Below are positions 1,565 through 17,490 of a stretch of 46,076 nucleotides of DNA, in pieces (position 1 is the stretch's first letter; each line of letters begins with the position of its first letter). This DNA is from Desulfuromonadales bacterium (lineage in GTDB: Bacteria > Desulfobacterota > Desulfuromonadia > Desulfuromonadales > DASPGW01): contig DASPGW010000043.1 in assembly GCA_035620395.1 (NCBI GenBank), positions 1-46,076 of the forward strand, in the 5' to 3' direction. A program made the translations under genes and the position numbers. Below the pieces are notes generated by a model. It saw nothing but the letters and a program-made list of their open reading frames with translations. It did not search any database and was not told the DNA's origin.

Positions 1565-1573
1565 TGTTATAAT
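1565..1573 (+). promoter_or_regulatory. candidate extended -10 promoter element for the SPFH operon
   Basis: TGtTATAAT (TG 1565-1566, TATAAT 1568-1573) lies in the AT-rich divergent intergenic region, about 25 nt upstream of the GTG start. I see no convincing -35. Confidence 0.35.
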
Positions 1574-1597
1574 TCTAAAAAATAAAGGAGGTAGCGC

Positions 1598-2608
1598 GTG
1601 GAGCCGGAACAACGCTTTCGCCTGTTGCAGCGGGCCAGGGTCAAGACGCTGCTGAAGAGGGGGTTCCTCCTGGTGCTGGCCGGAGCCCTGCTCTACAATG
1701 TCGTGGCGCTGGTCTATGCCACCAAGACCATCTACAAGGTCCGCCGCAACTATGCGGTGATCATGGAGGACCTCTCCGGCGACCGGCGGGTGGTGGCGGA
1801 TGTCGGCTGGCATGCCCGGCTGCCGTTCTTCACCCGGATCGAGCTGGAAGTGCCGCTGATGAACCAGGAGCTCTACCTCGGCGGAACGGCCGAGGCTCAG
1901 CGCATCATGACGCAGGGGAACGTCGCCCTCTGGACCAGCGCCATGCTGACCTTCCGCATCCGTGACCTGCAGCGCTGGGGGATCGAGAACAAGGCGCCGC
2001 AGAACCTGCTGCAGAACGACTACGACGGCATCGTCAAGGACATCATGCAGGGGCGCTCGGTCGACGAGCTGGTCTCCGACCGCGAGCGGATCAAGGAAGT
2101 CATCTTCCGGGATCTCAAGGACCGGCCGATCAACGAGGGGGGGCCGACCCTGGAGCAGAAGTACGGCATCGAAGTCGTCTCCTTCGTCCTGCGCGATACC
2201 CGCTTCGGCGAGAAGCTGGCCGAGGCGAGCGAAGAGAAGAAGCGGCGCGAGCTGATCGCCGAGGCGGAGAACTATGCCGCCGACCAGGAGGCGAGCCGCA
2301 CCCGCAAGCTTTACACCGCCTACAGCGAGTCGATCCGCGACTTTCGCAACGCCCTGGGGCTGCAGGCGGACCACGACCGGTTTCTCTTTGAATTTCTCAA
2401 CCAGCAGAAATGGGCCACCGCCTACGAGAAGAACCAGCAGGGGCAGAACACTTTCGTACTCAATAACACTCTCGGTTCGCCCTCCGTCACCCTGCCGGCA
2501 CCGCCGGCGGGGGTGAGAAAGGATGCTGCAGCGGAAAATGGCAAATCCCCGCAAGACCAGAAGCCCAATCTACGTCAGACTCTCGGAAAAGCGGATCAGG
2601 CAGATTGA
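1598..2608 (+). CDS. SPFH/band-7 (stomatin-prohibitin-flotillin-HflK/C) family membrane protein
   Basis: GTG start with AAAGGAGG upstream. An N-terminal TM helix (GFLLVLAGALLYNVVALVYA) is followed by an SPFH-like core (VALWTSAMLTFRIRDL, KYGIEVVSFVLRDTRF). A charged helical tail follows (EKLAEASEEKKRRELIAEAENYAADQEASR), then a low-complexity C-terminus. Confidence 0.8.
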   Translation: MEPEQRFRLLQRARVKTLLKRGFLLVLAGALLYNVVALVYATKTIYKVRRNYAVIMEDLSGDRRVVADVGWHARLPFFTRIELEVPLMNQELYLGGTAEAQRIMTQGNVALWTSAMLTFRIRDLQRWGIENKAPQNLLQNDYDGIVKDIMQGRSVDELVSDRERIKEVIFRDLKDRPINEGGPTLEQKYGIEVVSFVLRDTRFGEKLAEASEEKKRRELIAEAENYAADQEASRTRKLYTAYSESIRDFRNALGLQADHDRFLFEFLNQQKWATAYEKNQQGQNTFVLNNTLGSPSVTLPAPPAGVRKDAAAENGKSPQDQKPNLRQTLGKADQAD

Positions 2609-5600
2609 GTCGCTGGCCGCGGGGTGGAGCTTTGAAACCCGCCTCTTCGTCCTGCGCCGGCTTCGCCAGTACAACCCCTCCCGCTCTCCCTTCGAGCTGC
2701 TGCGCGGCTGGCTGCGCCGATTGCTCAAGCCGGCCGAGCGCAGCTTCCAGATCCTGCGCGACCCGGAACTGCTCAACGACTGGCGGCGGCGCTTCGAGGT
2801 CGCCGGGTCGCCGAGCGCCTCGGCGGCCTGGAACCGGATTCTCGACCGCGAACTCGACTGGCACGACTATCAGTACCTGACCTACCTGCTGGAGCGACAG
2901 ACCGCCGACATCTTCGCCCCGCCGGCCTTCCTTGACATTTTCCGTAGAATCTATCGTGCCCATATCCTCAAGGAGTACACCGAGGACCCGAACGTGCCGC
3001 GGGCGCCGCTGGTGCTGGTCATCGGCAGCAGCGGCAGCGGCAAGAGCGCCACCGTCAAGCAGGCGATCGAGGAGGCGATCTTCGCCTCCGAGGTGCGGCC
3101 GGTGGTCGATCTGCAGGCCAAGCGCGACGAAATGCTCGCCGACCAGCCATTCTGGCGCACCCTCGAAGACGTCGACCCGGAGCTGGCCGTGCGTATCGAA
3201 CGCCGCCGCAAGGTCGAGCGGCTGCGGTTCATCTCGCGCCTGCCGCTGATCAAGTACCTATTCCGCGAGCGGATCAGCCACGCCCTTTCCTCATTGGAGG
3301 AGGAGGGGGTCTGGGTCGATTACGCCATGATCACTCCCAACGACTATCAGACCGCCTGGGCCGGCGAGCCCGGCAACTACCTGCGCAAGGCGATGGGGGA
3401 TCCGCGGCGCACTTCCATCCGTCATCTTGAGGAGGCGCACTCGGCGCTGGGCCGGGCCGATCAGATGAGCACCGTCAAGGGGCAGCAGGCGACGCTCGTC
3501 GATGCAGCCAACATCATTCTTGACGAGATCGCCTACGGGCGCCGCGACTGTCTGCTGATTGCCACGACCGACCAGCCCGAGCAGTTCGATGCCGCCATCT
3601 ACCGGCGCTTCGTCGAACGGGGGCTGGTCATCGACATCGGCGAGATGTGGGATGAGCCGGAAAACCTGCGCGAGGTGGTGCGCATGGAGCTGCAACGCAA
3701 GAACTTCTCCTTCGGTCCAGCCGCCGGGGAAGCCGGCAGCCGGGTGCTGCCCGAAACGGTTCTGGCCGAGACGGTGCAGAAGCTCTACCCCATATTCCGG
3801 GAACGCAGCCTGCGCATCACGCCGGCCTACGTCCGTCGCCTGATCGATTCCATTCTTGCCCTCAGGGAGGAGTTCTCCGCGGCGTGCCTCGACGATCAGT
3901 ACCTGGTCCGGGATGCTCTCAAGGCGGTGGCCCGCAACGTCCACGGTTCCCTCTACAAGAAAGTGGCGGGGCACATGGATCGCTCCATCCATTGGGAGGA
4001 TTACATCGGCGGCATCAAGAACGAGTTCTCCGAAATGGCCAACAACGCCCTCTACTACCATGTCAGCGATGAGAAGGGGGTAGTGCTGACCGGTCCGCCC
4101 GGCTCGGGCAAGACCTACATGGTGCGGGCCTGGCTGGGGGACAACCGGGAAGTCGCCGACCTCGTGGTCAATCTCAATGACCTGACCGACCCGATGCAGC
4201 CGATCGAAGGGATGGTCGCCAATCTGGAGCGGGTCTACGACATCGCCAAAATGATTTCTCCGTCCATGGTTTTCTTCGACGAGGGAGACGCCGTGGCGCC
4301 GCGCCGTTCGCAACAGGGAGGAAGCCCCTACGACAAGGTGACCAACAAGTTTCTCTCGATCATCGACGGCGAGTCTCCGCTCTCCCGCGTCTTTACCGTG
4401 CTGACCACCAACCGTCTCGATATCCTCGATCCGGCCCTGATTCGTTCCAAACGCCTCAAGGTACTCAACGTCACCGGCCACATGCGGGACGATGACGCCC
4501 TGCGCATCATGCGCAAGGAGCTGCACGACATCCCTCTGGATGAGGGGTTGAGCTTCGAGGAGATGGTGCGGGTCGCCCGGGTGCTTTGCGAAACCCCCGC
4601 CGATTTCACCGCCTTCGCCGAAAAGGTGCGCAGCCTGCGCACCACCGAAATGGAGGTGCTGGCCAAGCTGATGGAGGCGGTGCAGCAGTCGGCGGAGGAG
4701 CGGGCCCGCTTCGTCCGCTTCAATTACAAAACCCTGGTGGGGCTGCTCGAAGGGGGCGGTGGTGAACCGAGCCTGGCGCTCAAGGCGCGGCACGGCGAGG
4801 AAGGGCTCTTGAGCTGCCTCGATGAGGCCGCTGCCCGCCTCGCCCGGGTGCGCGACCTCGGCCTCTACCCGGTAACCCGCTGGCATCTGCACAGCGCCCG
4901 CCAGCAGATGGCCGGCAGTCCGATGCGCAAGGGGAAACAGCAGCTCGACGAGTTTCTCGAGACCGAGCTCTCCCGCGAGCCGCAGGTCGGCTTCGTCGTG
5001 GGGGTGGGCGCCAACGACACCAGCGGGGTGCTGCTGCCGATCGCCTCCTCCCTGGTCTACCGGATGTTTCCCGAGAAGATCGTGGTGACCGGCGCCGTCT
5101 CCTCCGCCGCCCCCGGCGCGGCGGAGCTCGACCTGGCCGTGCAGATGACCCACCAGAGCGCCCGCGAAGCGCTGACCCTGGTGGAGAACTACCTGCAGTC
5201 CCTCTGCCCCTCGCGCAACGTGCCGCGTATCCTCGGCGAGTTCCTCGAGGGCTACTCGCTGCACCATCAGCTGCTTTCCGCCTCCTACAGCGTCGGTGGA
5301 CCATCGGCCGGATTTGCCCTGGCCATCAACACCCTGTCGGTGCTGCTCTGTCTGCCGGTCCTCAACGATTTCGGCATTACCGGGGCGCCCTGGATCAAGG
5401 GGGCGCAGCGCGGCGAGGTCGGCGCCTCGGTGATCATCGGCGGCCATCGCAAGAAGGCGGAAAAGGTCCTGCAGTATCTGCCCCGCATGTACATGCCGAT
5501 GCAGAACTATCAGGACCTCGAGCCCGAGCTGCTGGAAGCCTACAGGCTGGAGGGGCGGGATATCCGGGGCGTTCGCAGCTTTTCGGCGCTGGTCCCCGAG

Positions 5601-5888
5601 GTCTTTTTCTTCGACGACCTGCAGCAGCGGCGGCTGGGCGAATATCTGCGGCTCCGTCTGGATCTCGACCGCAAGGCGGATCTGCCTGAAGGGCTGTCGG
5701 CTTCGGCGAAGAAGGGGGAGCTCGAACGGCGGGAGGCGGAGCTGCGCAGCCAGGCGGAGGAGGAAATCCGCCGCCGGATCGAAGCGATCTGTCTGTGCGT
5801 GGAAAACGGTGGGGCGGTCTACGGAAGCATGGAAGACCTTTTCCGGCTGTCGCCGAAAGCCGTCCAGCGGCAGGAGGACGTGCGCTGA
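2523..5888 (+). CDS. tandem AAA+ ATPase fused to a Lon-type (S16) Ser-Lys protease domain, 1121 aa
   Basis: AAA module 1 has Walker A GSSGSGKS (3024-3047) and LLIATTDQPEQFDAAIYRRF. AAA module 2 is of the classical clade: GPPGSGKT (4092-4115), Walker B MVFFDEGD and SRH-like TTNRLDILDPALIRSKRL. The C-terminal Lon proteolytic domain has GGPSAGFALAINTL (Ser codon 5304-5306) and IIGGHRKKAEK (Lys). The protein ends in a Glu/Arg-rich tail. The start could be ATG 2523 or ATG 2538; both overlap the SPFH gene. Confidence 0.8.
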   Translation: MLQRKMANPRKTRSPIYVRLSEKRIRQIESLAAGWSFETRLFVLRRLRQYNPSRSPFELLRGWLRRLLKPAERSFQILRDPELLNDWRRRFEVAGSPSASAAWNRILDRELDWHDYQYLTYLLERQTADIFAPPAFLDIFRRIYRAHILKEYTEDPNVPRAPLVLVIGSSGSGKSATVKQAIEEAIFASEVRPVVDLQAKRDEMLADQPFWRTLEDVDPELAVRIERRRKVERLRFISRLPLIKYLFRERISHALSSLEEEGVWVDYAMITPNDYQTAWAGEPGNYLRKAMGDPRRTSIRHLEEAHSALGRADQMSTVKGQQATLVDAANIILDEIAYGRRDCLLIATTDQPEQFDAAIYRRFVERGLVIDIGEMWDEPENLREVVRMELQRKNFSFGPAAGEAGSRVLPETVLAETVQKLYPIFRERSLRITPAYVRRLIDSILALREEFSAACLDDQYLVRDALKAVARNVHGSLYKKVAGHMDRSIHWEDYIGGIKNEFSEMANNALYYHVSDEKGVVLTGPPGSGKTYMVRAWLGDNREVADLVVNLNDLTDPMQPIEGMVANLERVYDIAKMISPSMVFFDEGDAVAPRRSQQGGSPYDKVTNKFLSIIDGESPLSRVFTVLTTNRLDILDPALIRSKRLKVLNVTGHMRDDDALRIMRKELHDIPLDEGLSFEEMVRVARVLCETPADFTAFAEKVRSLRTTEMEVLAKLMEAVQQSAEERARFVRFNYKTLVGLLEGGGGEPSLALKARHGEEGLLSCLDEAAARLARVRDLGLYPVTRWHLHSARQQMAGSPMRKGKQQLDEFLETELSREPQVGFVVGVGANDTSGVLLPIASSLVYRMFPEKIVVTGAVSSAAPGAAELDLAVQMTHQSAREALTLVENYLQSLCPSRNVPRILGEFLEGYSLHHQLLSASYSVGGPSAGFALAINTLSVLLCLPVLNDFGITGAPWIKGAQRGEVGASVIIGGHRKKAEKVLQYLPRMYMPMQNYQDLEPELLEAYRLEGRDIRGVRSFSALVPEVFFFDDLQQRRLGEYLRLRLDLDRKADLPEGLSASAKKGELERREAELRSQAEEEIRRRIEAICLCVENGGAVYGSMEDLFRLSPKAVQRQEDVR

Positions 5889-5920: not shown

Positions 5921-7717
5921 TCAGGTCCGGTCGGAGTGGCGCCCCAACTGGACCGTGAAGGTAAACAGGCTGCCGCTTCCCTCCTCGCTCTCGACCCGGA
6001 TTTCTCCTCCCATGCGGGCCACGATCTCCTTGCAGATGGCCAGGCCGAGGCCGGTTCCCTTGAACCGGCGGGTATGAGAATCATCCACCTGGCTGAAGGC
6101 CTGGAACAGGCGCCGTTGTCCCTCGGCGGAGATGCCGATTCCGGTGTCGCGCACCGAAAAGAGGAGCCGGTGCCGGTCGTCGCCGGTCTGCTGCGGGCAA
6201 GAGCGGACGTGGACCGATATCTCGCCCTTCTCGGTGAACTTGATGGCGTTGCCGATGAGGTTGAACAACACCTGGCGCAGCCGGTCAGGGTCGCCGACGA
6301 CTATTTCCGGCCCTTCTGGATCGATGTCGAGCTTCAACTCGAGTCCTTTCTGCCGGGCCTTCAGGGAGAGCAGATCGACGGTGCCGCTGAGGCACTCGCG
6401 CAGGCTGAAGGGTTCGTTCGCGAAGACGAGCTTCTTCGCTTCGATGCGGGAAAAATCGAGGATGTCGTTGATGACCTGCAGCAGGGATTCAGCAGCATCC
6501 CTGGCTATTTCCAGATAGCGGCGCTGCACGGCCGTGAGATTGGTGTCGAGGACCAGCTCGAGCATCCCCATGACGCCACTCATCGGCGTGCGGATTTCGT
6601 GGCTCATGTTGGCAAGGAACTGGCTTTTCACCCGGTTCGCCTTTTCGGCGGCCTCCTTGGCGCCCAGGAGTTCCGCCTGCACTCGCTCGCGCTCGGTGAT
6701 GTCGTGCCCGTAAAAATTGACGTAGTTGTTCTCGACTATCGGAACGAGCGTGAATGACAGCTGGCGCCCATCGCAGCAGATCCTCAACTCCTGGCGGACA
6801 GCGTTTTCCAGCGCCGTTTCCAGCGCTTGCTTCACCTCTACCGGCACTTGCCTGCCAAGCTGGCATTCCCACTGCTCAAGCAGCGCCCTGGCCGAGCTAT
6901 TGGCGAACAACAGGGTCCCGTCCTGAGCCACCCGCAGAACAGGGAACGGGTTCTGCTCGGGAAACAATGCCGCGCTCCGGATATGTTCCTCCGCCCGCTT
7001 GCGGTCGGTGATGTCCTGGACCGTACCGAACCCACCGATCAGCATCTCCTGCCGATCGAACTCCAGCTCGGCCCTTTCGCGAACCCACTTCACTTCGCTG
7101 CCGACGACGATCCGGTGCTCGATCTCGCACGGCTCCCCGCGCCGGGCTGCCCGCCACGACCGGTCCACGAAATCCCGGTCATCCGGGTGAACGGCCGCGA
7201 GAAACGTCTCATACGTCAAGGGCGTATCCTTGGGGATTCCGAATATCCGGTAGTTTTCGTCGGACCAGAGCAATTCGTTTCGCCCAACATTCAATCGCCA
7301 GCTGCCGGTTTTTGCCACGGCCTGGGCACGGTTCAGGTCCTCCTCTCGCTCCTGCAGTGCCTGCTGGACGGCTCTGCGCTGAGTGATGTCGATGAAGAAG
7401 ACGGCCAGCCCGTCGGTGGCAGGGTGGACGCGGACCTCGAACCAGGAGTCGAAGGGGGCGTAGAAGCCTTCGAACACCTTCGCCGTTCCCTCCGCCAGGG
7501 ACTTCTCGTACTCGGTGTGGAAGATTGTCCCGATCGCGTCGGGGTACTCGGTCCAGATATGTCTGCCGATCAGTTCCGCACGGCAACGCCGCAGGAGGCG
7601 TTCTGCCTGGCTGTTGACGTAGGTGAAGCGACCCTTCCGGTCGAGGCTGAAGAAGGCATCGGAGATTCTCTCCAGGATGTCGAGGGCTCGGTCCGGGTGA
7701 AAGTCCCACTTGCTCAT
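5921..7717 (-). CDS. cytoplasmic multi-PAS sensor histidine kinase
   Basis: ORF track 5921..7798. I moved the start to ATG 7717 (MSKWDFHPDR). At least three PAS-like segments are present. The HisKA H-box is MSHEIRTPMSGVMG. HATPase boxes are LFNLIGNAIKFT, DTGIGI and GTGLGLAICKEIV. There is no TM segment and no receiver domain. Confidence 0.9.
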   Translation of the reverse strand: MSKWDFHPDRALDILERISDAFFSLDRKGRFTYVNSQAERLLRRCRAELIGRHIWTEYPDAIGTIFHTEYEKSLAEGTAKVFEGFYAPFDSWFEVRVHPATDGLAVFFIDITQRRAVQQALQEREEDLNRAQAVAKTGSWRLNVGRNELLWSDENYRIFGIPKDTPLTYETFLAAVHPDDRDFVDRSWRAARRGEPCEIEHRIVVGSEVKWVRERAELEFDRQEMLIGGFGTVQDITDRKRAEEHIRSAALFPEQNPFPVLRVAQDGTLLFANSSARALLEQWECQLGRQVPVEVKQALETALENAVRQELRICCDGRQLSFTLVPIVENNYVNFYGHDITERERVQAELLGAKEAAEKANRVKSQFLANMSHEIRTPMSGVMGMLELVLDTNLTAVQRRYLEIARDAAESLLQVINDILDFSRIEAKKLVFANEPFSLRECLSGTVDLLSLKARQKGLELKLDIDPEGPEIVVGDPDRLRQVLFNLIGNAIKFTEKGEISVHVRSCPQQTGDDRHRLLFSVRDTGIGISAEGQRRLFQAFSQVDDSHTRRFKGTGLGLAICKEIVARMGGEIRVESEEGSGSLFTFTVQLGRHSDRT

Positions 7718-7877
7718 GGCTTGCCTTCTTCGTGGGGAGCGGCATGTCTGGCGAAAGGCAGAAAAGCACGGGAAGGCTCTGCCCGCCAGGTAAAGCAAAT
7801 TCTAAACCGGGAGGAGAATTTCCCGCAATGAGCACTTTGGAAATGTTACCCGAAAATCCCGATTTCCGCCGGGAAAG

Positions 7878-11092: not shown

Positions 11093-14077
11093 ATGACCCG
11101 GATTCTGCTTTCAGCTTTCATGGCGTTTCTGCTCTGCCTCGGGTGTACGGCAAGGGTTTTCGGGAAAAGCCTGCCGACCCTGAGTCACGCCTCGGCCGCT
11201 CCGGCCGGGACGCCCTCCGCCCATCCCGAATCCCTGCCCCCTCCCGAGATTCTGCGTCAGTGGATCGCCCAGATGAAAGAGGCCCCACGGGGCCCTTTCC
11301 AGCGCCTCCGCTGGTTCTGTAAGGATGGCACCATTTTCCCCCCCCAACCCTACGCCTGCCAGGATCACGGCGGGGGGGTACAGCACGGCGAATGGAGCGA
11401 TCGGGTCAAGCTGCTGCGCTCCCACGGGTACCGGATCGCCAATGTGCTTGCCGCTGTCGATCCGGCCTCTTTCAGGAAAGACTCCGATTGGCTGCCGACC
11501 CTCAAGCAGATGCTTCTCGAGCAGTTTCTCATCGAAGCCGACGACGGCTGGATCTATCGTCAGGCCCGTTATTACCCGGGGGCTCTCCAGACCGAAAATG
11601 AAAATGCTTACGGGCGGGCGCTGCTTCTGGATCTGTTGACCGACCGCCGCATGCACAACGAAAATTTCCTGGTGATGCGGGAGGCTGTGCGCCTGCTTCC
11701 GCACGGTCGTCGGGGAGTCCCCCTCATAGAGATGCGTCAATTGGCCCGGACCATCGAGGACAAGGATCCGAATTTCACCCCATTGCGGGTCAAACTCCAT
11801 GTCCGTCCCGATTCGGGGGACGCCGGCCGCGTCCGGACTTATGCCGCCGGCAAGGGGAAGCCCGCTCTGGCCGGGGAGTACTATAATCTGGCCGCGGTCA
11901 TCGACGAGGTCTACACCTCCCGGAATATCGTGGAGGGGTTGCACCAGGCGGCTTCCCGGAGTAGAGACGCCGGTCTGGCCCGGTCGCTCAAACAGGCTGC
12001 GGCTTTGCTGGCGGTGGAGCTGGACCCGGTCCGCCGTTTTGCCACGGTCGCCGCGGCAATGTTCGAAATTCGCCAGACCTTTTCCCGGCCCGGCAGCGCC
12101 ACGCGGATGCTGGAGCTGCTGGATCTCAGCCTCGATCTCGAGCAGGAAGCCTTCCAGCTCGGCAACCAGTGGCTCGACCGCCTGGCCGAGACCGACCGCC
12201 GGGGGCGCCTGGACTGGCTGCAGGGCAGTTCCCGGGTCATTTACGGGATGGGCCTGATTTCCCGGCGGGAGCTCGACGCGCTGGGGGAGAGTTTCCGCCA
12301 GCTTGAAGCCGCCCCGCTGGCGGCCGGCACCTATAAGGCCGAACTCGATTATCTGGCACGAATCTCCGAATGGGCAGAGAATACCCTGCATTTTCACTTC
12401 CAGCAGTCGATCGACCATCTGGCCACCCTCGATCCGCTGTTCGAGCGGTATATCCCCGACCGGCTCCGGGGCAGCCCTCTGGTCTGCCTGATCAGCGTGC
12501 TCGACAGCCTGAGGCTGGATGCCGGCAGGCTGGTCGGCATCCGTCACCAGGTGTTCGGTTCCCCGGTGAGCAGCGGGCTGCGCGCCCTCAACCCCGGGCT
12601 GGCCCGCGGCACACTGCGCTTCTATCGCCCGGAGGCCGGGTGGGAGCGGGAGGCGATCTACCTGCTGCCGGAAACCCTGGCCGAGCTTCCCCCGCTGGCG
12701 GGCATGCTGACCGAGGGGAGAGGCAATGCCCTCTCCCACGTGCAACTGCTGGCCCGCAACCTGGGGATTCCCAATGTCGCCGTCGAGCACCAGCTGGCGG
12801 CGAAGCTGAGGTCCCGGGAGGGGCAGCCGGTGGTCCTGGCGGCCAGCCCCGCCGGGGTGGTCGAACTGGCCGAAGACGGCCGCCGCTGGGATCAAATCTT
12901 TCAGGGTGAACAAGCCTCCGCCGATCTGCTCATCCATCCCGACCTGGCAAAGCTCGATCTGGCCACCCGCGATTTTCTCCCGCTGCGGGACCTCCGGGCG
13001 GCCGCTTCGGGGCGGATCGTCGGGCCCAAGGCGGCCAATCTCGGCGAGCTGAAAAGCCTCTACCCCGACCTGGTGACCGAGGGCCTGGCCATCCCCTTCG
13101 GGCTTTTCCGCCAGCATCTGGAGCAGCCCATCGAGCCCGGCGGCCCGACAGCGTTCCAGTGGATGCAGGAGCAATACGCGGCGCTCCGGCGGATCGAGGA
13201 CCCCCGGGCTCGAGCCTTGGGGGAGACGGGTTTTCTCCATAGTCTGCGGGAGTGGATCATCACCAGCGATCCGGGCCGGAAATTCACCGGCAACCTGCGG
13301 GCGGCCATGGCCCGAACCTTCGGGCCGGAGGGGAGCTACGGCGTTTTCGTCCGCAGCGACACCAACGTGGAAGACCTGCCGGGGTTCTCCGGAGCCGGCC
13401 TGAATCTGACCGTGCCGCACGTGGTCGGCTTCGAAAACGTCCTGCGGGCCATCCTCCAGGTGTGGGCCTCCCCCTTCACCGAGCGGGCCTACGCCTGGCG
13501 TCAGGGACATATGGAGCAGCCCGAGCAGGTCTACGTATCGGTTCTGCTGATGCGAAGCGTTCCGGCGGAAAAGTCGGGGGTCATGGTCACTGCCGACATC
13601 GAGACGGGGAATCGGGACTGGGTGACCGTGGCGGTGAACGAGGGGGTGGGCGGCGCCGTAGAGGGGCAGCGGGCCGAGGAACTCCTGATCGACCGGCGCA
13701 GCGGCCGGGTCCGTCTGCTGGCCCAGGCTGCCGAACCGCTCAAACGGGTTCTGCGTCCCGGGGGCGGCGTCGGCAAGGTCCCCGCCAGCGGGGTGGAGAG
13801 CATTTTATCCAGCGAGGAAATCCGGACCCTGGTACAGATGGCCGACAGTCTCCCCGGGCGTTTCCCGAGCCAGGTCGATGCCGGCGGAAAATCGGCGCCG
13901 GCGGACATCGAATTCGGTTTTGTCGACAACCGCTTCGTCCTGTTCCAGATCCGCCCCTTCCTGGAAAGTTCCCGGGCCCGCCGCAGCCTTTATCTGCAGC
14001 GGCTCGACGCGCAGATGGAAGGAGCCGGCGCCCGCACCGTCGATCTGGAAGAAATTCCCCGGGAGGGCGGGTCATGA
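11093..14077 (+). CDS. secreted PEP-utilising-family dikinase-like protein with permuted (GWD-like) domain order
   Basis: The ORF-track frame opens at 10661, inside ppsA. The first plausible start is ATG 11093 (MTRILLSAFMAFLLCLGCTARVFG, a signal peptide). About 500 aa of the N-terminal region carry no motif I recognise. The phospho-His swivel domain has GRGNALSHVQLLARNLGIPNV (His codon 12737-12739). The C-terminal PPDK_N/ATP-grasp domain has GPKAANLGEL, VFVRSDTNVEDLPGFSGAGL, EKSGVMVTAD and DIEFGFVDNRFVLFQIRP. No PEP/pyruvate TIM-barrel domain is present. Confidence 0.8.
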   Translation: MTRILLSAFMAFLLCLGCTARVFGKSLPTLSHASAAPAGTPSAHPESLPPPEILRQWIAQMKEAPRGPFQRLRWFCKDGTIFPPQPYACQDHGGGVQHGEWSDRVKLLRSHGYRIANVLAAVDPASFRKDSDWLPTLKQMLLEQFLIEADDGWIYRQARYYPGALQTENENAYGRALLLDLLTDRRMHNENFLVMREAVRLLPHGRRGVPLIEMRQLARTIEDKDPNFTPLRVKLHVRPDSGDAGRVRTYAAGKGKPALAGEYYNLAAVIDEVYTSRNIVEGLHQAASRSRDAGLARSLKQAAALLAVELDPVRRFATVAAAMFEIRQTFSRPGSATRMLELLDLSLDLEQEAFQLGNQWLDRLAETDRRGRLDWLQGSSRVIYGMGLISRRELDALGESFRQLEAAPLAAGTYKAELDYLARISEWAENTLHFHFQQSIDHLATLDPLFERYIPDRLRGSPLVCLISVLDSLRLDAGRLVGIRHQVFGSPVSSGLRALNPGLARGTLRFYRPEAGWEREAIYLLPETLAELPPLAGMLTEGRGNALSHVQLLARNLGIPNVAVEHQLAAKLRSREGQPVVLAASPAGVVELAEDGRRWDQIFQGEQASADLLIHPDLAKLDLATRDFLPLRDLRAAASGRIVGPKAANLGELKSLYPDLVTEGLAIPFGLFRQHLEQPIEPGGPTAFQWMQEQYAALRRIEDPRARALGETGFLHSLREWIITSDPGRKFTGNLRAAMARTFGPEGSYGVFVRSDTNVEDLPGFSGAGLNLTVPHVVGFENVLRAILQVWASPFTERAYAWRQGHMEQPEQVYVSVLLMRSVPAEKSGVMVTADIETGNRDWVTVAVNEGVGGAVEGQRAEELLIDRRSGRVRLLAQAAEPLKRVLRPGGGVGKVPASGVESILSSEEIRTLVQMADSLPGRFPSQVDAGGKSAPADIEFGFVDNRFVLFQIRPFLESSRARRSLYLQRLDAQMEGAGARTVDLEEIPREGGS

Positions 14078-16215: not shown

Positions 16216-17490
16216 ATGCAACCAATTGATTTGAAAAAAGAGCCGGAGAAGGGTGCCGCCCGGGAGTCTAATCTCCGCACCTTGCAGGTAAGGGCCTGTT
16301 TTCTTTTCCTGAATTTCCTGCTGATCATCATGGCCCTTTATCAGCTGAAGCCGGCCAGTCGCTCGCTGTTCATCCAGTTTCTGGGCGCGGACCAGCTTCC
16401 CTACGTCTGGATCGGGACGGCTGTGGTCATGGGGGCACTGATTACCTGGTACCATCGGCTGGTCGAGCGGCATGCGCGGGTGCGGGTGGTCTTCGGCAGC
16501 TGTCTTCTGTTCGGCGCGCTGCTGGTTCTTTTCCGGCTGCTCTTCAACCGCCCGCATCCGGCGACGGCCATCGCCTTTTACATTTTTGTCGACATCCTCA
16601 GCGTGGTCCTGGTAGAGCAGTTCTGGAGCCTGACCAACTCCATCTACAGCACGCGGGAAGGCAAGGCCTGGTACGGTTTCATCGGCACCGGTGGCCTTTT
16701 GGGAGGCGTGCTCGGTGGCGGCGCCGGGGTCCTGCTTCTCAAATATACCCCGTTGCAGACGCCGGATCTGCTCCTCGTGGCTGCCGGCAGTATCCTGCTC
16801 ATTATGGCGCTAACCTGGGTAATGGGACGGCTCGGGATCTATCGCGAAGTGGCTAAGCGGGGGCGCCCCACCCGCTTCGAAGGAGGCTGGCGGGCGTTGC
16901 AGCAGAACCGTTACCTGCTGCTGATCGCCGGCATCCTGCTGCTCGCCCAGCTGGTCGACCCCATCGTGGAATACCAGTTCCTGAAAACGGTCGAAGTCCA
17001 TTATGCCGAACTGGAGGCGCGCACCACCTTTCTCTCGGGTTTTTTCGGTGTCCTCGGCATGGTTGCCATCGCCGTCAACCTTGGCCTTACCCCCCTGGTG
17101 CATCGCTATCTTGGCGTGATTGCCGGTCTGTTGATCCAGCCGCTGGCGTTGGGCGCCTGCTCTTTGGGTTTCTTCGCCAACCCCACCCTGCTTTTCGGGG
17201 CGGCAGCCAAGATCAGCGACCGGGGGCTCTCCTATTCCATCAATCGGGCCTCCAAGGAACTGCTCTACGTCCCTACCGACTCGGTGCTGATCTACCAGGC
17301 CAAAGCCTGGATCGATATGTTCGGTTACCGCCTGTTCAAGATCTTCGGGTCCTTTGTCATTCTCATCTTCACCCGGTGGCTTCCCTTTTCCGTCGAGGTT
17401 CCCCAGCTCAGCTGGTTCACCGTCGGCATCTGCGTTCTCTGGGTCGTGCTCATCGTGGCCCTTCGCCGGGACTACGTGAAGTTCGCCTGA
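16216..17490 (+). CDS. polytopic membrane carrier, TLC/Npt-like (ADP/ATP-translocase family) MFS-type
   Basis: About 11-12 hydrophobic segments are visible. The N-terminal LFLNFLLIIMALYQLKPASRSLFIQFLGADQLPYVW resembles the conserved start of COG3202/TLC carriers. Being a membrane transporter is near certain; the family assignment is tentative. Confidence 0.6.
   Translation: MQPIDLKKEPEKGAARESNLRTLQVRACFLFLNFLLIIMALYQLKPASRSLFIQFLGADQLPYVWIGTAVVMGALITWYHRLVERHARVRVVFGSCLLFGALLVLFRLLFNRPHPATAIAFYIFVDILSVVLVEQFWSLTNSIYSTREGKAWYGFIGTGGLLGGVLGGGAGVLLLKYTPLQTPDLLLVAAGSILLIMALTWVMGRLGIYREVAKRGRPTRFEGGWRALQQNRYLLLIAGILLLAQLVDPIVEYQFLKTVEVHYAELEARTTFLSGFFGVLGMVAIAVNLGLTPLVHRYLGVIAGLLIQPLALGACSLGFFANPTLLFGAAAKISDRGLSYSINRASKELLYVPTDSVLIYQAKAWIDMFGYRLFKIFGSFVILIFTRWLPFSVEVPQLSWFTVGICVLWVVLIVALRRDYVKFA

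What the first reader, a model, noticed from the sequence alone, without database searches (positions are those of the whole stretch)
1598..5888. SPFH/band-7 membrane protein coupled to a tandem-AAA+ / Lon-protease fusion: candidate undescribed scaffold-protease system
Seen in sequence. Gene A (1598-2608) has one N-terminal TM helix, an SPFH core and a charged coiled-coil tail. Gene B (2523-5888, 1121 aa) starts inside gene A. It has an N-domain of about 150 aa, an AAA module with Walker A GSSGSGKS, and a classical-clade AAA module (GPPGSGKT, MVFFDEGD, TTNRLDILDPALIRSKRL). It then has a Lon/S16 proteolytic domain with the GPSAG serine (codon 5304-5306) and an IGGHRKKAEK lysine, plus a Glu/Arg-rich tail. 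Established knowledge. SPFH proteins typically cage or scaffold membrane proteases (HflK/C with the AAA+ protease FtsH; stomatin with the NfeD/STOPP serine protease). Canonical LonA/LonB carry a single AAA module. Inference. This pair looks like a third version of the SPFH-plus-protease theme, in which a Cdc48/p97-like double-ring unfoldase carries a Lon peptidase. It would be recruited to the membrane by the SPFH partner, since gene B has no TM segment of its own. I do not know of a characterised family with this architecture. A role in membrane-protein quality control, stress response or phage defence cannot be distinguished from sequence.
Basis: partly seen in the sequence, partly recalled or inferred. 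Interest (0 to 1): 0.8.

Follow-up and report, generated by a model that had tools for sequence, protein, structure and literature searches.

The report
SPFH scaffold paired with AAA-AAA-Lon protease
A two-gene operon, always inherited together in some sediment bacteria, CPR bacteria and DPANN archaea, encodes a membrane SPFH scaffold and a large, apparently undescribed ATP-driven protease made of two Cdc48-type motor rings fused to a Lon peptidase; it looks like a new counterpart of the FtsH–HflK/C membrane quality-control machine.

Summary
Gene A (1598-2608) is a single-pass SPFH/Band_7 protein. Gene B (2523/2538-5888) has a novel all-alpha N-domain, a divergent classical AAA module (D1), a canonical classical AAA module (D2), a Lon-fold peptidase and a helical tail. 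Ser928 and Lys978 are invariant down to 32% identity, and they align with the catalytic Ser and Lys of LonB. An AlphaFold model of the C-terminal region matches only Lon proteolytic domains among its top PDB hits.

The pair is strictly syntenic in 126 of 126 informative loci, whichever gene is used as anchor. It occurs in Desulfuromonadales, Desulfobulbales, Desulfobacterales, Marinimicrobia, CPR bacteria and DPANN archaea. No other neighbour is conserved across these lineages.

Flanking charges and signal-anchor-like N-termini predict that the SPFH domain and its C-tail lie outside the cytoplasm, as in HflK/C. The cytosolic gene B therefore probably cannot be recruited through the SPFH C-tail. 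Gene B also lacks a Cdc48-type N-domain.

I found no published description or curated family. Best reading: a new AAA+ protease family that works with a trans-membrane SPFH scaffold in membrane-protein quality control. The substrates and the physical coupling are unknown.

The parts
1565..1591 (+). Putative extended -10 promoter element (TGtTATAAT, 1565-1573) and Shine-Dalgarno AAGGAGG (1585-1591) upstream of gene A, within an AT-rich intergenic region.
   Evidence: Read directly from the sequence. The two-hexamer consensus scan found no full sigma-70 match, so the promoter call is weak. The SD sequence is strong.
1598..2608 (+). Gene A: single-pass SPFH/Band_7 membrane protein, 336 aa. Basic N-tail (aa 1-22), TM helix (aa 23-41), SPFH core (aa 47-232), charged helical region (about aa 200-260), conserved C-terminal 'QKWAxAYEK...GQNTxV...TLP' motif, then a variable low-complexity tail.
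   Evidence: Pfam Band_7 E=2.4e-17. A profile of 14 homologues hits stomatin at 1.2e-6, QmcA at 3.7e-6, HflC at 0.019 and HflK at 0.037 in PDB. TM helix and flanking charges. Alignment.
1664..1720 (+). TM helix of gene A (aa 23-41). N-flank has 6 K/R, C-flank has 4 K/R.
   Evidence: Hydropathy and charge counts in 50+ homologues. The N-flank is the more basic side in every lineage except L051, where the net flank charges tie, which predicts N-in/C-out.
2523..5888 (+). Gene B: N-domain, AAA(D1), AAA(D2), Lon peptidase and helical tail. 1121 aa from the first ATG. The probable true start is ATG 2538 (1116 aa).
   Evidence: Homologue N-termini align from Met6.
2538..3002 (+). N-domain (aa 6-160): all-alpha, 8 helices. 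Begins with a beta-alpha-alpha stretch that resembles a ribbon-helix-helix motif (aa 10-50). Contains a variable aromatic and basic amphipathic segment (aa ~50-72, FELLRGWLRRLLKP).
   Evidence: AlphaFold2 pLDDT 79.5. No PDB fold match, best E=3.2. No Pfam hit at E<=1. Alignment A5.
3000..3962 (+). D1, a divergent classical AAA module (aa ~160-480). Walker A GSSGSGKS (K174, codon 3042-3044). Insertion of about 90 aa (aa ~185-275, nt 3075-3347). Aromatic pore loop QTAW279AGE (codon 3357-3359). Walker-B-equivalent HLE303-E304 (E304 codon 3432-3434). TTD350 at the sensor-1 position. R361/R362 Arg fingers.
   Evidence: PF00004 at 26.8 bits against a gathering score of 21.2, covering profile positions 37-125. 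hhalign of D1 against D2 gives 82.7% probability. Conservation counts: K174 42/42, E304 42/42, W279 36/42, R362 42/42.
3963..4727 (+). D2, a canonical classical-clade AAA module with lid (aa 481-735). GPPGSGKT (K530, codon 4110-4112), FFD586-E587 (E587 codon 4281-4283), TTN630, R641/R644. The pore loop is non-aromatic: P-[ILY]-[ED]-G.
   Evidence: Pfam AAA E=2.6e-26. NCBIfam CDC48, PAN and FtsH partial hits. Best PDB sequence hits are Cdc48/p97/VAT D2, E~1e-35. Conservation.
4950..5552 (+). Lon/S16-fold peptidase domain (aa ~810-1010). Catalytic Ser928 is in GGPSAG (codon 5304-5306). Catalytic Lys978 is in IIGGxxK (codon 5454-5456).
   Evidence: Foldseek top 50 PDB hits are all Lon proteolytic domains (3k1j, 1xhk, 1z0e and others; probability 1.00; target-normalised TM ~0.7). 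The profile against PDB hits LonB domains at 1e-8, with Ser and Lys aligned to the catalytic residues. Lon_C hits 26/26 members. S928 and K978 are invariant in 40 genomic homologues and in members at 32-38% identity.
5610..5885 (+). C-terminal Glu/Arg-rich helical tail (aa ~1030-1121). Two long helices. A few positions are conserved across the whole family (E1079, I1082, R1085 in 1121-aa numbering).
   Evidence: AlphaFold2 secondary structure, helices at model residues 297-316 and 323-359. Invariant columns in A1.

Best explanation
The locus is a self-contained bicistronic operon for a two-component membrane proteolysis system.

Gene B:
- It is a cytosolic or peripheral, presumably hexameric, ATP-dependent processive protease.
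- A family-specific alpha-helical N-domain selects substrates or partners.
- The polypeptide is gripped by the aromatic pore loop of D1 (W279).
- It is translocated by the classical-clade AAA tandem. D2 is the canonical motor. D1 binds nucleotide and possibly hydrolyses it.
- It is delivered directly into a fused Lon-type Ser928-Lys978 peptidase chamber.

Gene A:
- It is a type-II (N-in/C-out) single-pass SPFH protein.
- Like other SPFH proteins, it oligomerises into a ring or cage, here on the outer face of the cytoplasmic membrane, and fences off a membrane patch.

Together: the two act on the same patch from opposite sides, and B extracts and degrades membrane proteins held or marked there. 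This is the functional logic of FtsH with HflK/C, but the fused protease has no TM or periplasmic domain of its own. It is built from a Cdc48-type tandem plus a Lon peptidase, not a single AAA module plus an M41 metalloprotease.

Shown:
- the domain architecture;
- the Lon fold;
- conservation of the Ser-Lys dyad and the ATPase motifs;
- absence of a TM segment in B;
- obligate synteny and co-divergence of A and B.

Inferred:
- the hexameric state;
- the topology of A;
- physical coupling of A and B;
- the substrate class.
For: - Architecture and motifs.
- Lon fold. All of the top 50 PDB matches are Lon proteolytic domains.
- Catalytic residues: S928 and K978 align to the LonB catalytic Ser and Lys. 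They are invariant across 40 genomic homologues and across members at 32-38% identity from archaea and CPR.
- ATPase residues: both catalytic Glu residues (E304, E587), both Walker A Lys residues and the Arg fingers are invariant in 42/42 sequences.
- Synteny: the SPFH gene is directly upstream on the same strand in 45/45 GTDB loci and in 7/7 distant lineages. Anchoring on the SPFH gene, B is directly downstream in 74/74 metagenome loci.
- No other neighbour is conserved across these lineages.
- The A and B identity matrices correlate at r=0.96, Mantel 0/2000.
- The genes abut or overlap in most loci, consistent with translational coupling.
- Topology: the N-flank of A's TM helix has 4-7 K/R against 2-4 in the C-flank. 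The CPR and Marinimicrobia members have signal-anchor-like N-termini followed by an acidic FFDG.
- The window neighbourhood is housekeeping.
- In one archaeal contig an FtsH gene sits directly upstream of the pair.
- Established knowledge: SPFH proteins form membrane cages that partner with proteases, namely HflK/C with FtsH and stomatin with NfeD (PMC2636767; 24-mer cage cited in PMC11188069).
Against: - There is no experimental or structural evidence that A and B touch.
- If A is N-in/C-out, only its TM helix and N-tail are accessible to B. That tail is only 3-8 residues long in the Marinimicrobia and L055 clades, so a universal docking site has not been identified.
- By sequence A is nearer to the cytoplasm-facing stomatin/QmcA group (E~1e-6) than to HflK/C (E~0.02-0.04). 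The topology call therefore rests on charge bias alone.
- The Walker-B Asp is replaced in D1 (Glu in most members, Leu/Ile/Val in 7/42) and in D2 of some distant members (Asn in 9/42). The contribution of each ring to hydrolysis is uncertain.
- The active-site loops of the Lon model have low confidence, pLDDT below 50 at model residues 185-192 and 220-238.
- No substrate is known.
Confidence: 0.55

Rival explanations
1. The SPFH domain of A faces the cytoplasm, as in QmcA, stomatin and flotillin. It forms a cytoplasmic cage or platform that directly binds gene B, through the cage wall or the C-terminal region, and so recruits or encloses it at the membrane.
For: The profile of A is closest to stomatin and QmcA, which are cytoplasm-facing (orientation of YbbK/QmcA stated in PMC2636767). 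A large contact surface would readily explain the obligate pairing and the co-divergence.
Against: This geometry would require moving an N-tail carrying 5-7 Lys/Arg and no acidic residues across the membrane. In the CPR and Marinimicrobia clades the N-terminus has the n-region/h-region layout of a signal-anchor, with an acidic residue directly after it. The extreme C-tail of A is variable and is missing in some members.
Confidence: 0.17
2. Gene A is itself the main substrate. Gene B is a dedicated disassembly and turnover machine that extracts SPFH subunits from the membrane by their cytosolic N-termini and degrades them. This would reset or remodel the SPFH cage, in the way Vps4 acts on ESCRT-III or the STOPP/NfeD protease cleaves stomatin.
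For: Strict 1:1 gene coupling. In most lineages the only cytosol-exposed part of A is a basic, probably unstructured N-tail of about 20 aa that could act as an initiation site. Precedent: the stomatin-specific protease PH1510 cleaves its operon partner (PMC3795559).
Against: The N-tail is only 3-8 aa in two clades, which is too short for engagement by an AAA pore. Co-translation of an enzyme with its only substrate at fixed stoichiometry would be wasteful. There is no direct evidence.
Confidence: 0.12
3. An anti-phage or abortive-infection module, analogous to IetAS (AAA ATPase plus serine protease) or other ATPase-protease defence pairs, with the SPFH protein acting as membrane sensor or effector.
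For: The distribution is patchy and crosses domains, indicating horizontal transfer. D2 gives weak PADLOC hits to IetA (35.8 bits) and TRIP13.
Against: The PADLOC hits cover only the generic AAA core, and nothing matches gene A or any system-specific component. There are no defence, integrase or transposase genes around the pair in the window or in the distant loci. Within Desulfuromonadales the pair sits at a partly conserved chromosomal position next to a DUF362 Fe-S gene, and its divergence tracks taxonomy.
Confidence: 0.08
4. The Lon-like domain is a non-catalytic oligomerisation or ring-forming module, as in RadA/Sms or ComM. Gene B would then be only an unfoldase or segregase.
For: The full-length Lon_C Pfam score is below threshold. 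The modelled active-site loops have low confidence.
Against: GGPSAG Ser928 and GGxxK Lys978 are invariant across 40 close and 9 distant members, and they align with the catalytic dyad of LonB structures. Inactive Lon-like domains typically lose these residues (established knowledge).
Confidence: 0.04

Closest known systems
FtsH with HflK/HflC (bacterial membrane AAA+ protease inside an SPFH cage)
   Same: A classical-clade AAA+ motor fused to a peptidase works with a single-pass, N-in SPFH scaffold whose bulk is predicted to be extracytoplasmic. The presumed role is membrane-protein quality control. In one archaeal contig an ftsH gene lies next to the pair.
   Different: FtsH has one AAA module, an M41 zinc metalloprotease, two TM helices and a periplasmic domain that sits inside the cage. 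Gene B has two AAA modules, a Ser-Lys Lon peptidase and no TM or periplasmic part. There is one SPFH gene here, not the HflK/HflC pair, and it is closer in sequence to stomatin/QmcA. The genes are strictly co-operonic, unlike ftsH and hflKC in E. coli (own knowledge).
LonB / LonA (MEROPS S16 ATP-dependent proteases)
   Same: The peptidase domain has the Lon fold and the Ser-Lys dyad. The best sequence and structure matches are archaeal LonB proteolytic domains. The GPSAG motif is the one seen in LonA. An AAA+ motor is fused in the same chain.
   Different: Lon uses a single HCLR-clade AAA+ module. LonA has a PUA-like/helical N-domain and LonB has a TM insertion. Gene B has a tandem of classical-clade AAA modules (best matches Cdc48, PAN and FtsH), a different N-domain, no TM segment, and NCBIfam Lon scores of 27-32 bits against cut-offs of 500-720.
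Cdc48/p97/VAT (and actinobacterial Cpa) with the 20S proteasome
   Same: A tandem D1-D2 of classical AAA modules. The NCBIfam CDC48 alignment spans the end of D1 through D2. The best PDB sequence hits are Cdc48, p97 and VAT. The unfoldase feeds a self-compartmentalised peptidase.
   Different: There is no CDC48_N double-psi barrel N-domain. The CDC48 model scores 83.7 bits against a cut-off of 802. The peptidase is fused in cis and is Lon-type, not a separate proteasome. The aromatic pore loop is in D1, not in D2 as in p97 (own knowledge). D1 carries an insertion of about 90 aa.
Stomatin with NfeD/STOPP (e.g. PH1511/PH1510, QmcA/YbbJ)
   Same: An SPFH protein of the stomatin-like kind sits in a conserved operon with a serine protease that uses a Ser-Lys dyad (PMC3795559, PMC2636767).
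   Different: The partner here is not an NfeD/ClpP-fold membrane protease. It is a soluble ATP-dependent protease of about 125 kDa. No NfeD gene is present in any locus examined. The predicted orientation of the SPFH domain is the opposite.
IetAS (AAA ATPase plus S8 protease defence pair)
   Same: An AAA ATPase is coupled to a serine protease. There is weak IetA profile similarity over D2.
   Different: The components are separate genes, the protease is subtilisin-like, there is no SPFH partner, and the context is a defence island. None of these is seen here.

Membership tests
Lon proteases (MEROPS S16; LonA/LonB) | Lon proteolytic-domain fold | tested here: met
   The Foldseek top 50 PDB hits are all Lon proteolytic domains, probability 1.00. 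Lon_C hits 26/26 members.
Lon proteases (MEROPS S16; LonA/LonB) | Conserved catalytic Ser-Lys dyad | tested here: met
   S928 and K978 are invariant and align to the catalytic Ser and Lys of LonB structures.
Lon proteases (MEROPS S16; LonA/LonB) | Single HCLR-clade AAA+ module immediately N-terminal of the peptidase | tested here: not met
   There are two AAA modules. Both match PF00004 and the classical clade (Cdc48/PAN/FtsH). NCBIfam lon and LonB models score 27-32 bits against cut-offs of 516-723.
Lon proteases (MEROPS S16; LonA/LonB) | LonA N-terminal substrate-binding domain, or LonB TM insertion | tested here: not met
   The N-domain has no Pfam hit and no PDB fold match. There is no TM segment.
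Cdc48/p97/VAT | Tandem classical AAA D1-D2 | tested here: met
   The CDC48 model aligns aa 338-727. PDB best hits. D1 passes the PF00004 threshold.
Cdc48/p97/VAT | CDC48_N double-psi barrel / beta-clam N-domain | tested here: not met
   The N-domain is all-alpha in the model. No CDC48_N Pfam hit. No PDB match.
Cdc48/p97/VAT | Full-length match to the curated CDC48 family model | tested here: not met
   83.7 bits against a cut-off of 802.65.
FtsH-HflK/C type SPFH-protease supercomplex | SPFH scaffold with N-in/C-out topology (extracytoplasmic cage) | tested here: inconclusive
   The charge bias and the signal-anchor-like N-termini predict it in all lineages. Sequence is closer to the cytoplasm-facing stomatin/QmcA group. 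No experimental topology is available.
FtsH-HflK/C type SPFH-protease supercomplex | Protease with its own TM helices and an extracytoplasmic domain held inside the cage | tested here: not met
   Gene B has no TM segment and no signal peptide.
FtsH-HflK/C type SPFH-protease supercomplex | Physical complex between scaffold and protease | not testable with these tools
   Only genetic linkage (126/126 loci) and co-divergence (r=0.96) could be shown.
Stomatin-NfeD/STOPP operon | NfeD-family partner gene adjacent to the SPFH gene | tested here: not met
   No NfeD domain appears in the called neighbours of nine loci or in the window.
IetAS anti-phage system | IetA ATPase with an IetS subtilisin-like protease, in a defence-island context | tested here: not met
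   Only partial IetA hits over the AAA core at 35.8 bits, no IetS, and no hit for gene A. The neighbourhood is housekeeping.

The most novel reading that the evidence does not exclude
Gene B founds an independent, so far unrecognised lineage of prokaryotic AAA+ proteases. It is a chimera of a Cdc48-type double ring and a Lon peptidase. It would act as a one-polypeptide 'dislocase-protease': it pulls membrane proteins out of the bilayer, like Cdc48 in ERAD, and degrades them directly. It would work in obligate partnership with an extracytoplasmic SPFH cage that marks or confines the substrates from the other side of the membrane. The module has moved horizontally between Desulfobacterota, CPR bacteria and DPANN archaea.
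Probability: 0.35. Interest if true: 0.8.

Novelty: new variant of a known kind. Interest (0 to 1): 0.62.

Why it matters
The accepted set of prokaryotic energy-dependent proteases is small: ClpXP/ClpAP/ClpCP, HslUV, Lon, FtsH and the proteasome with its ATPases. In that set each peptidase type is tied to one kind of AAA+ motor. Here a Lon peptidase is driven by a classical-clade tandem motor, which shows that motor and peptidase modules have been recombined in nature.

The pair would also be a third, independent case of the SPFH-plus-protease theme, after HflK/C with FtsH and stomatin with NfeD. That strengthens the view that SPFH cages are general organisers of membrane proteolysis.

Because the protease has no TM segment, the system poses a clear mechanistic question: how does an external cage communicate with a cytosolic machine? 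The module also occurs in DPANN archaea and CPR bacteria, whose reduced genomes retain few quality-control systems.

Cultured hosts exist and make experiments feasible:
- Desulfuromonas versatilis
- Desulfuromonas sp. DDH964
- Malonomonas rubra DSM 5091
- Geothermobacter hydrogeniphilus HR-1

Tried and rejected
1. RHH idea for the start of gene B. The sequence pattern (beta, helix, helix) at aa 10-50 suggested a ribbon-helix-helix motif. The monomer AlphaFold model leaves the strand as coil, and Foldseek found nothing with the whole N-domain. Pfam is silent. The idea is neither supported nor excluded and is not used.
2. phmmer of gene A alone against PDB gave no hit. A 14-sequence profile was needed.
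3. The search for related loci with the 14-sequence SPFH alignment failed because no stretch was conserved enough. It worked after the most distant members were dropped. The reciprocal synteny test therefore covers only SPFH relatives at 59% identity or more.
5. The sigma-70 and terminator scan of the operon gave no promoter, and the only terminator-like sites were two minus-strand matches inside gene B, fewer than the shuffled expectation.
6. A's cytosolic N-tail as a universal docking site for B was rejected, because the tail is 3-8 aa in two clades with well-supported start codons.
7. Defence-system membership was considered and rejected.
8. Six full-text literature searches and five papers read (PMC11188069, PMC9239133, PMC2636767, PMC11237479, PMC7159879) did not turn up this architecture. 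The library is incomplete, so absence there is not proof of novelty.
9. A third conserved gene was looked for in all loci and none was found. A TFIIS-type Zn-ribbon gene downstream is shared only by two closely related Woesearchaeota-type contigs.


Full report
**Observation**

Both ORFs are present as described. Gene A (1598-2608, +, 336 aa) starts at a GTG preceded by AAGGAGG at 1585-1591. It matches Pfam Band_7 (E=2.4e-17, aa 47-232) and has one hydrophobic helix at aa 23-41.

Gene B is the 1121-aa ORF 2523-5888. The NCBI protein for this contig (P0001, 1116 aa, 100% identical, 'AAA family ATPase [Desulfuromonadales bacterium]', contig length 46076) starts at Met6 (nt 2538), and so do the aligned homologues. 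Either start lies inside gene A, with an overlap of 71-86 nt.

The genes on both sides are on the opposite strand: 219-1406 (DUF362/4Fe-4S) and 5921-7798 (PAS histidine kinase). A-B is therefore an isolated bicistronic unit.

**Anatomy of gene B**

1. N-domain, aa ~6-160.
   - AlphaFold2, using a 29-sequence alignment, gives an all-alpha domain of eight helices with pLDDT 79.5.
   - Foldseek finds no PDB match (best E=3.2), and Pfam finds nothing at E<=1.
   - It is not the Cdc48 N-domain.
   - A segment at aa ~50-72 (FELLRGWLRRLLKP) is variable in sequence but aromatic and basic in all lineages. It could be an in-plane membrane helix. This is an inference.
2. D1, aa ~160-480.
   - Scanned alone, it passes the PF00004 gathering score (26.8 against 21.2 bits) over profile positions 37-125.
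   - hhalign links its sensor-1/Arg-finger region to that of D2 at 82.7% probability.
   - Walker A Lys174 is invariant (42/42).
   - An insertion of about 90 aa follows Walker A.
   - The pore loop is aromatic, QT[AM]W279[AY]GE, in 36/42 sequences.
   - The Walker-B Asp position is Glu303 in 35/42 and Leu/Ile/Val in the rest (Asp in one further representative, P0124). The catalytic Glu304 and Arg362 are invariant, and Arg361 is present in 41/42.
   - The sensor-1 Asn position is Asp350 in the window lineage.
3. D2, aa 481-735.
   - This is a canonical classical-clade module (Pfam AAA E=2.6e-26).
   - The best PDB sequence matches are Cdc48, p97 and VAT D2 at about 1e-35.
   - NCBIfam gives partial hits to CDC48, PAN and FtsH, all far below their cut-offs.
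   - Its pore-loop position is non-aromatic, P-[ILY]-[ED]-G.
4. Lon domain, aa ~810-1010.
   - Lon_C is sub-threshold in the full-length scan (19.9 bits) but passes when the region is scanned alone (23.7 against 21.1 bits). It hits 26/26 diverse members.
   - A profile of the region finds LonB proteolytic domains in PDB (1xhk at 1.2e-8, 1z0b/1z0e, 3k1j). Ser928 sits on the catalytic Ser and Lys978 on the Lys of GGxxxK.
   - The AlphaFold2 model has pLDDT 75 and pTM 0.71. Its active-site loops are low-confidence.
   - In Foldseek the model's top 50 PDB hits are all Lon proteolytic domains, with probability 1.00 and target-normalised TM of about 0.7.
   - Ser928 and Lys978 are invariant in 40 full-length genomic homologues and in nine representatives at 32-53% identity.
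5. Helical Glu/Arg-rich tail.

Gene B has no TM segment. Its hydropathy maximum, at aa 929-947, is the core helix that follows the catalytic Ser.

**Family and distribution**

An exhaustive HMMER search of 1.84 billion representatives finds only about ten full-length clusters at 50% identity, reaching down to 34% identity. After that, scores fall to generic Cdc48-like proteins at 170 bits or less.

Close members, at 67% identity or more, are from Desulfuromonadales: Desulfuromonas versatilis, Desulfuromonas sp. DDH964, Geoalkalibacter, Geothermobacter, Malonomonas rubra and Geopsychrobacter. Members at about 52-56% identity are from Desulfobulbales.

Members at 34-47% identity come from the following groups (taxonomy as named by the sources):
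- Woesearchaeota, Nanoarchaeota and other archaeal MAGs;
- Falkowbacteria and Parcubacteria;
- Marinimicrobia.

A Desulfobacterales member is at about 52% identity to the window protein.

All are annotated only as 'AAA family ATPase' or with similarly generic labels.

**Synteny**

| Test | Result |
|---|---|
| GTDB loci with upstream DNA | SPFH gene directly upstream, same strand, in 45/45; junctions mostly abut or overlap, range -155 to +95 nt |
| Distant lineages (CPR, Marinimicrobia, Desulfobacterales, four archaeal or unassigned contigs) | 7/7 |
| Reciprocal search of metagenome contigs with SPFH patterns only | gene B directly downstream in 74/74 informative loci |

No other neighbour is conserved across these lineages. 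Pairwise identities of A and of B correlate at r=0.96, Mantel 0/2000. Shared phylogeny contributes to this correlation, but the cross-domain spread implies that the pair is transferred as a unit.

**The SPFH partner and its topology**

A profile of 14 partners hits stomatin (1.2e-6), QmcA (3.7e-6), PH stomatin (1.4e-5), HflC (0.019) and HflK (0.037). Gene A alone hits nothing in PDB. A C-terminal 'QKWAxAYEK..GQNTxV...TLP' motif is kept in all lineages, while the extreme C-tail is variable or absent.

In every lineage except L051, where the net flank charges tie, the N-flank of the TM helix carries more Lys/Arg (4-7, no acidic residues) than the C-flank (2-4, often with acidic residues). The Marinimicrobia and L055 members have genuine short N-termini, supported by a good SD and an in-frame stop 9-10 codons upstream. 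These N-termini read MKK or MIK, then a long hydrophobic run, then FFDG, which is the layout of a signal-anchor.

By the positive-inside rule (established knowledge), this predicts N-in/C-out, the HflK/C orientation and not the QmcA one (orientations as stated in PMC2636767). I put this at roughly 75-80%. It is a prediction, not a measurement.

**Consequence for mechanism**

Gene B is an ATPase without a signal peptide or TM segment, so it must be cytosolic.

What remains is the FtsH-HflK/C geometry: the scaffold outside and the motor-protease inside, acting on one membrane patch. The coupling element is unidentified. A's N-tail is too short in two clades to be universal. The candidates are A's TM ring, together with the aromatic and basic segments of gene B's N-domain and D1 insertion. 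This is an inference.

I favour membrane-protein extraction and degradation as the function. The rivals are:
- turnover of the SPFH protein itself;
- a defence role;
- a non-catalytic Lon domain.

Defence is disfavoured for three reasons. PADLOC has no system-level match. The window context is housekeeping: DUF362 Fe-S protein, PAS kinase, Usp, PEP synthase, aconitase. The chromosomal position is partly conserved within Desulfuromonadales.

**Comparison with known systems**

Gene B shares the peptidase fold and dyad with Lon but fails Lon's motor and N-domain criteria. It shares the AAA tandem with Cdc48/VAT but fails the N-domain and full-length criteria. As a pair it works like FtsH-HflK/C and like stomatin-NfeD, but it is a member of neither.

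Six literature searches and five papers read did not turn up this architecture. The survey of prokaryotic SPFH operons (PMC2636767) lists only NfeD and FtsH links. A PSP-system survey (PMC11237479) reports Band-7 proteins next to other AAA+ types, none with a Lon domain.

**Verdict**

I rate it a new variant of a known kind: a new AAA+ protease architecture with an obligate SPFH partner. Interest is 0.62.

Noticed in passing
P0178 (representative protein; not in the window): A 595-aa protein fuses a caspase-like Peptidase_C14 domain (E=5.5e-18) to a homologue of this family's Lon-like C-terminal region plus helical tail (35% identity over aa 809-1112). The GGPSAG and GGxxK motifs are altered (ATTSIG / IGDQIK). 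It may be a second architecture that reuses this Lon-like module.
   Followed up: partly
L057:1674-3863 (archaeal contig JAIYMQ010000023.1): An FtsH gene (AAA + Peptidase_M41) lies directly upstream of the Band_7 / gene-B pair on the same strand. The contig also carries archaeal translation genes (eIF2-gamma, S6e, aIF-2). This pair is unusually close to the bacterial ones (A 41%, B 47% identity to the window), which suggests recent inter-domain transfer.
   Followed up: partly
window 2538-2660 (gene B aa 6-50): The extreme N-terminus of gene B (RKTRSPIYVRLSEKRIRQIESLAAGWSFETRLFVLRRLRQY) has the strand-helix-helix pattern of a ribbon-helix-helix motif, conserved in all lineages. Pfam and Foldseek gave no support, and the monomer model leaves the strand as coil.
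   Followed up: partly
window 11129-14077 (+): A protein of about 980 aa directly after PEP synthase has a hydrophobic, signal-peptide-like N-terminus (MTRILLSAFMAFLLCLGCTARVFG). It carries a PPDK_N (pyruvate phosphate dikinase ATP-binding) domain only at its C-terminus (E=6.4e-30). This is an odd combination for an apparently exported protein.
   Followed up: no
window 16216-17490 (+): A 424-aa membrane protein gives a Pfam TLC ATP/ADP-transporter hit (E=1.8e-16), stronger than its sub-threshold MFS_1 hit. This family is best known from obligate intracellular bacteria and plastids.
   Followed up: no
gene B family, D1/D2 Walker B (window codons 3429-3434 and 4278-4283): The Walker-B Asp is not conserved in either ring across the family. 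In D1 it is Glu in most members, Asp in one representative and Leu/Ile/Val in 7/42. In D2 it is Asn in 9/42 of the aligned set, and Gln in two other representatives. The catalytic Glu is invariant in both rings. One clade (P0125-like) lacks the Asp in both rings.
   Followed up: partly
L049:3901-5421 and L054:8420-9903: In two Woesearchaeota-type contigs, gene B is followed by the same three small genes (about 214 aa unknown, a TFIIS-type Zn-ribbon protein, about 168 aa unknown). This is probably only local synteny between close relatives.
   Followed up: no
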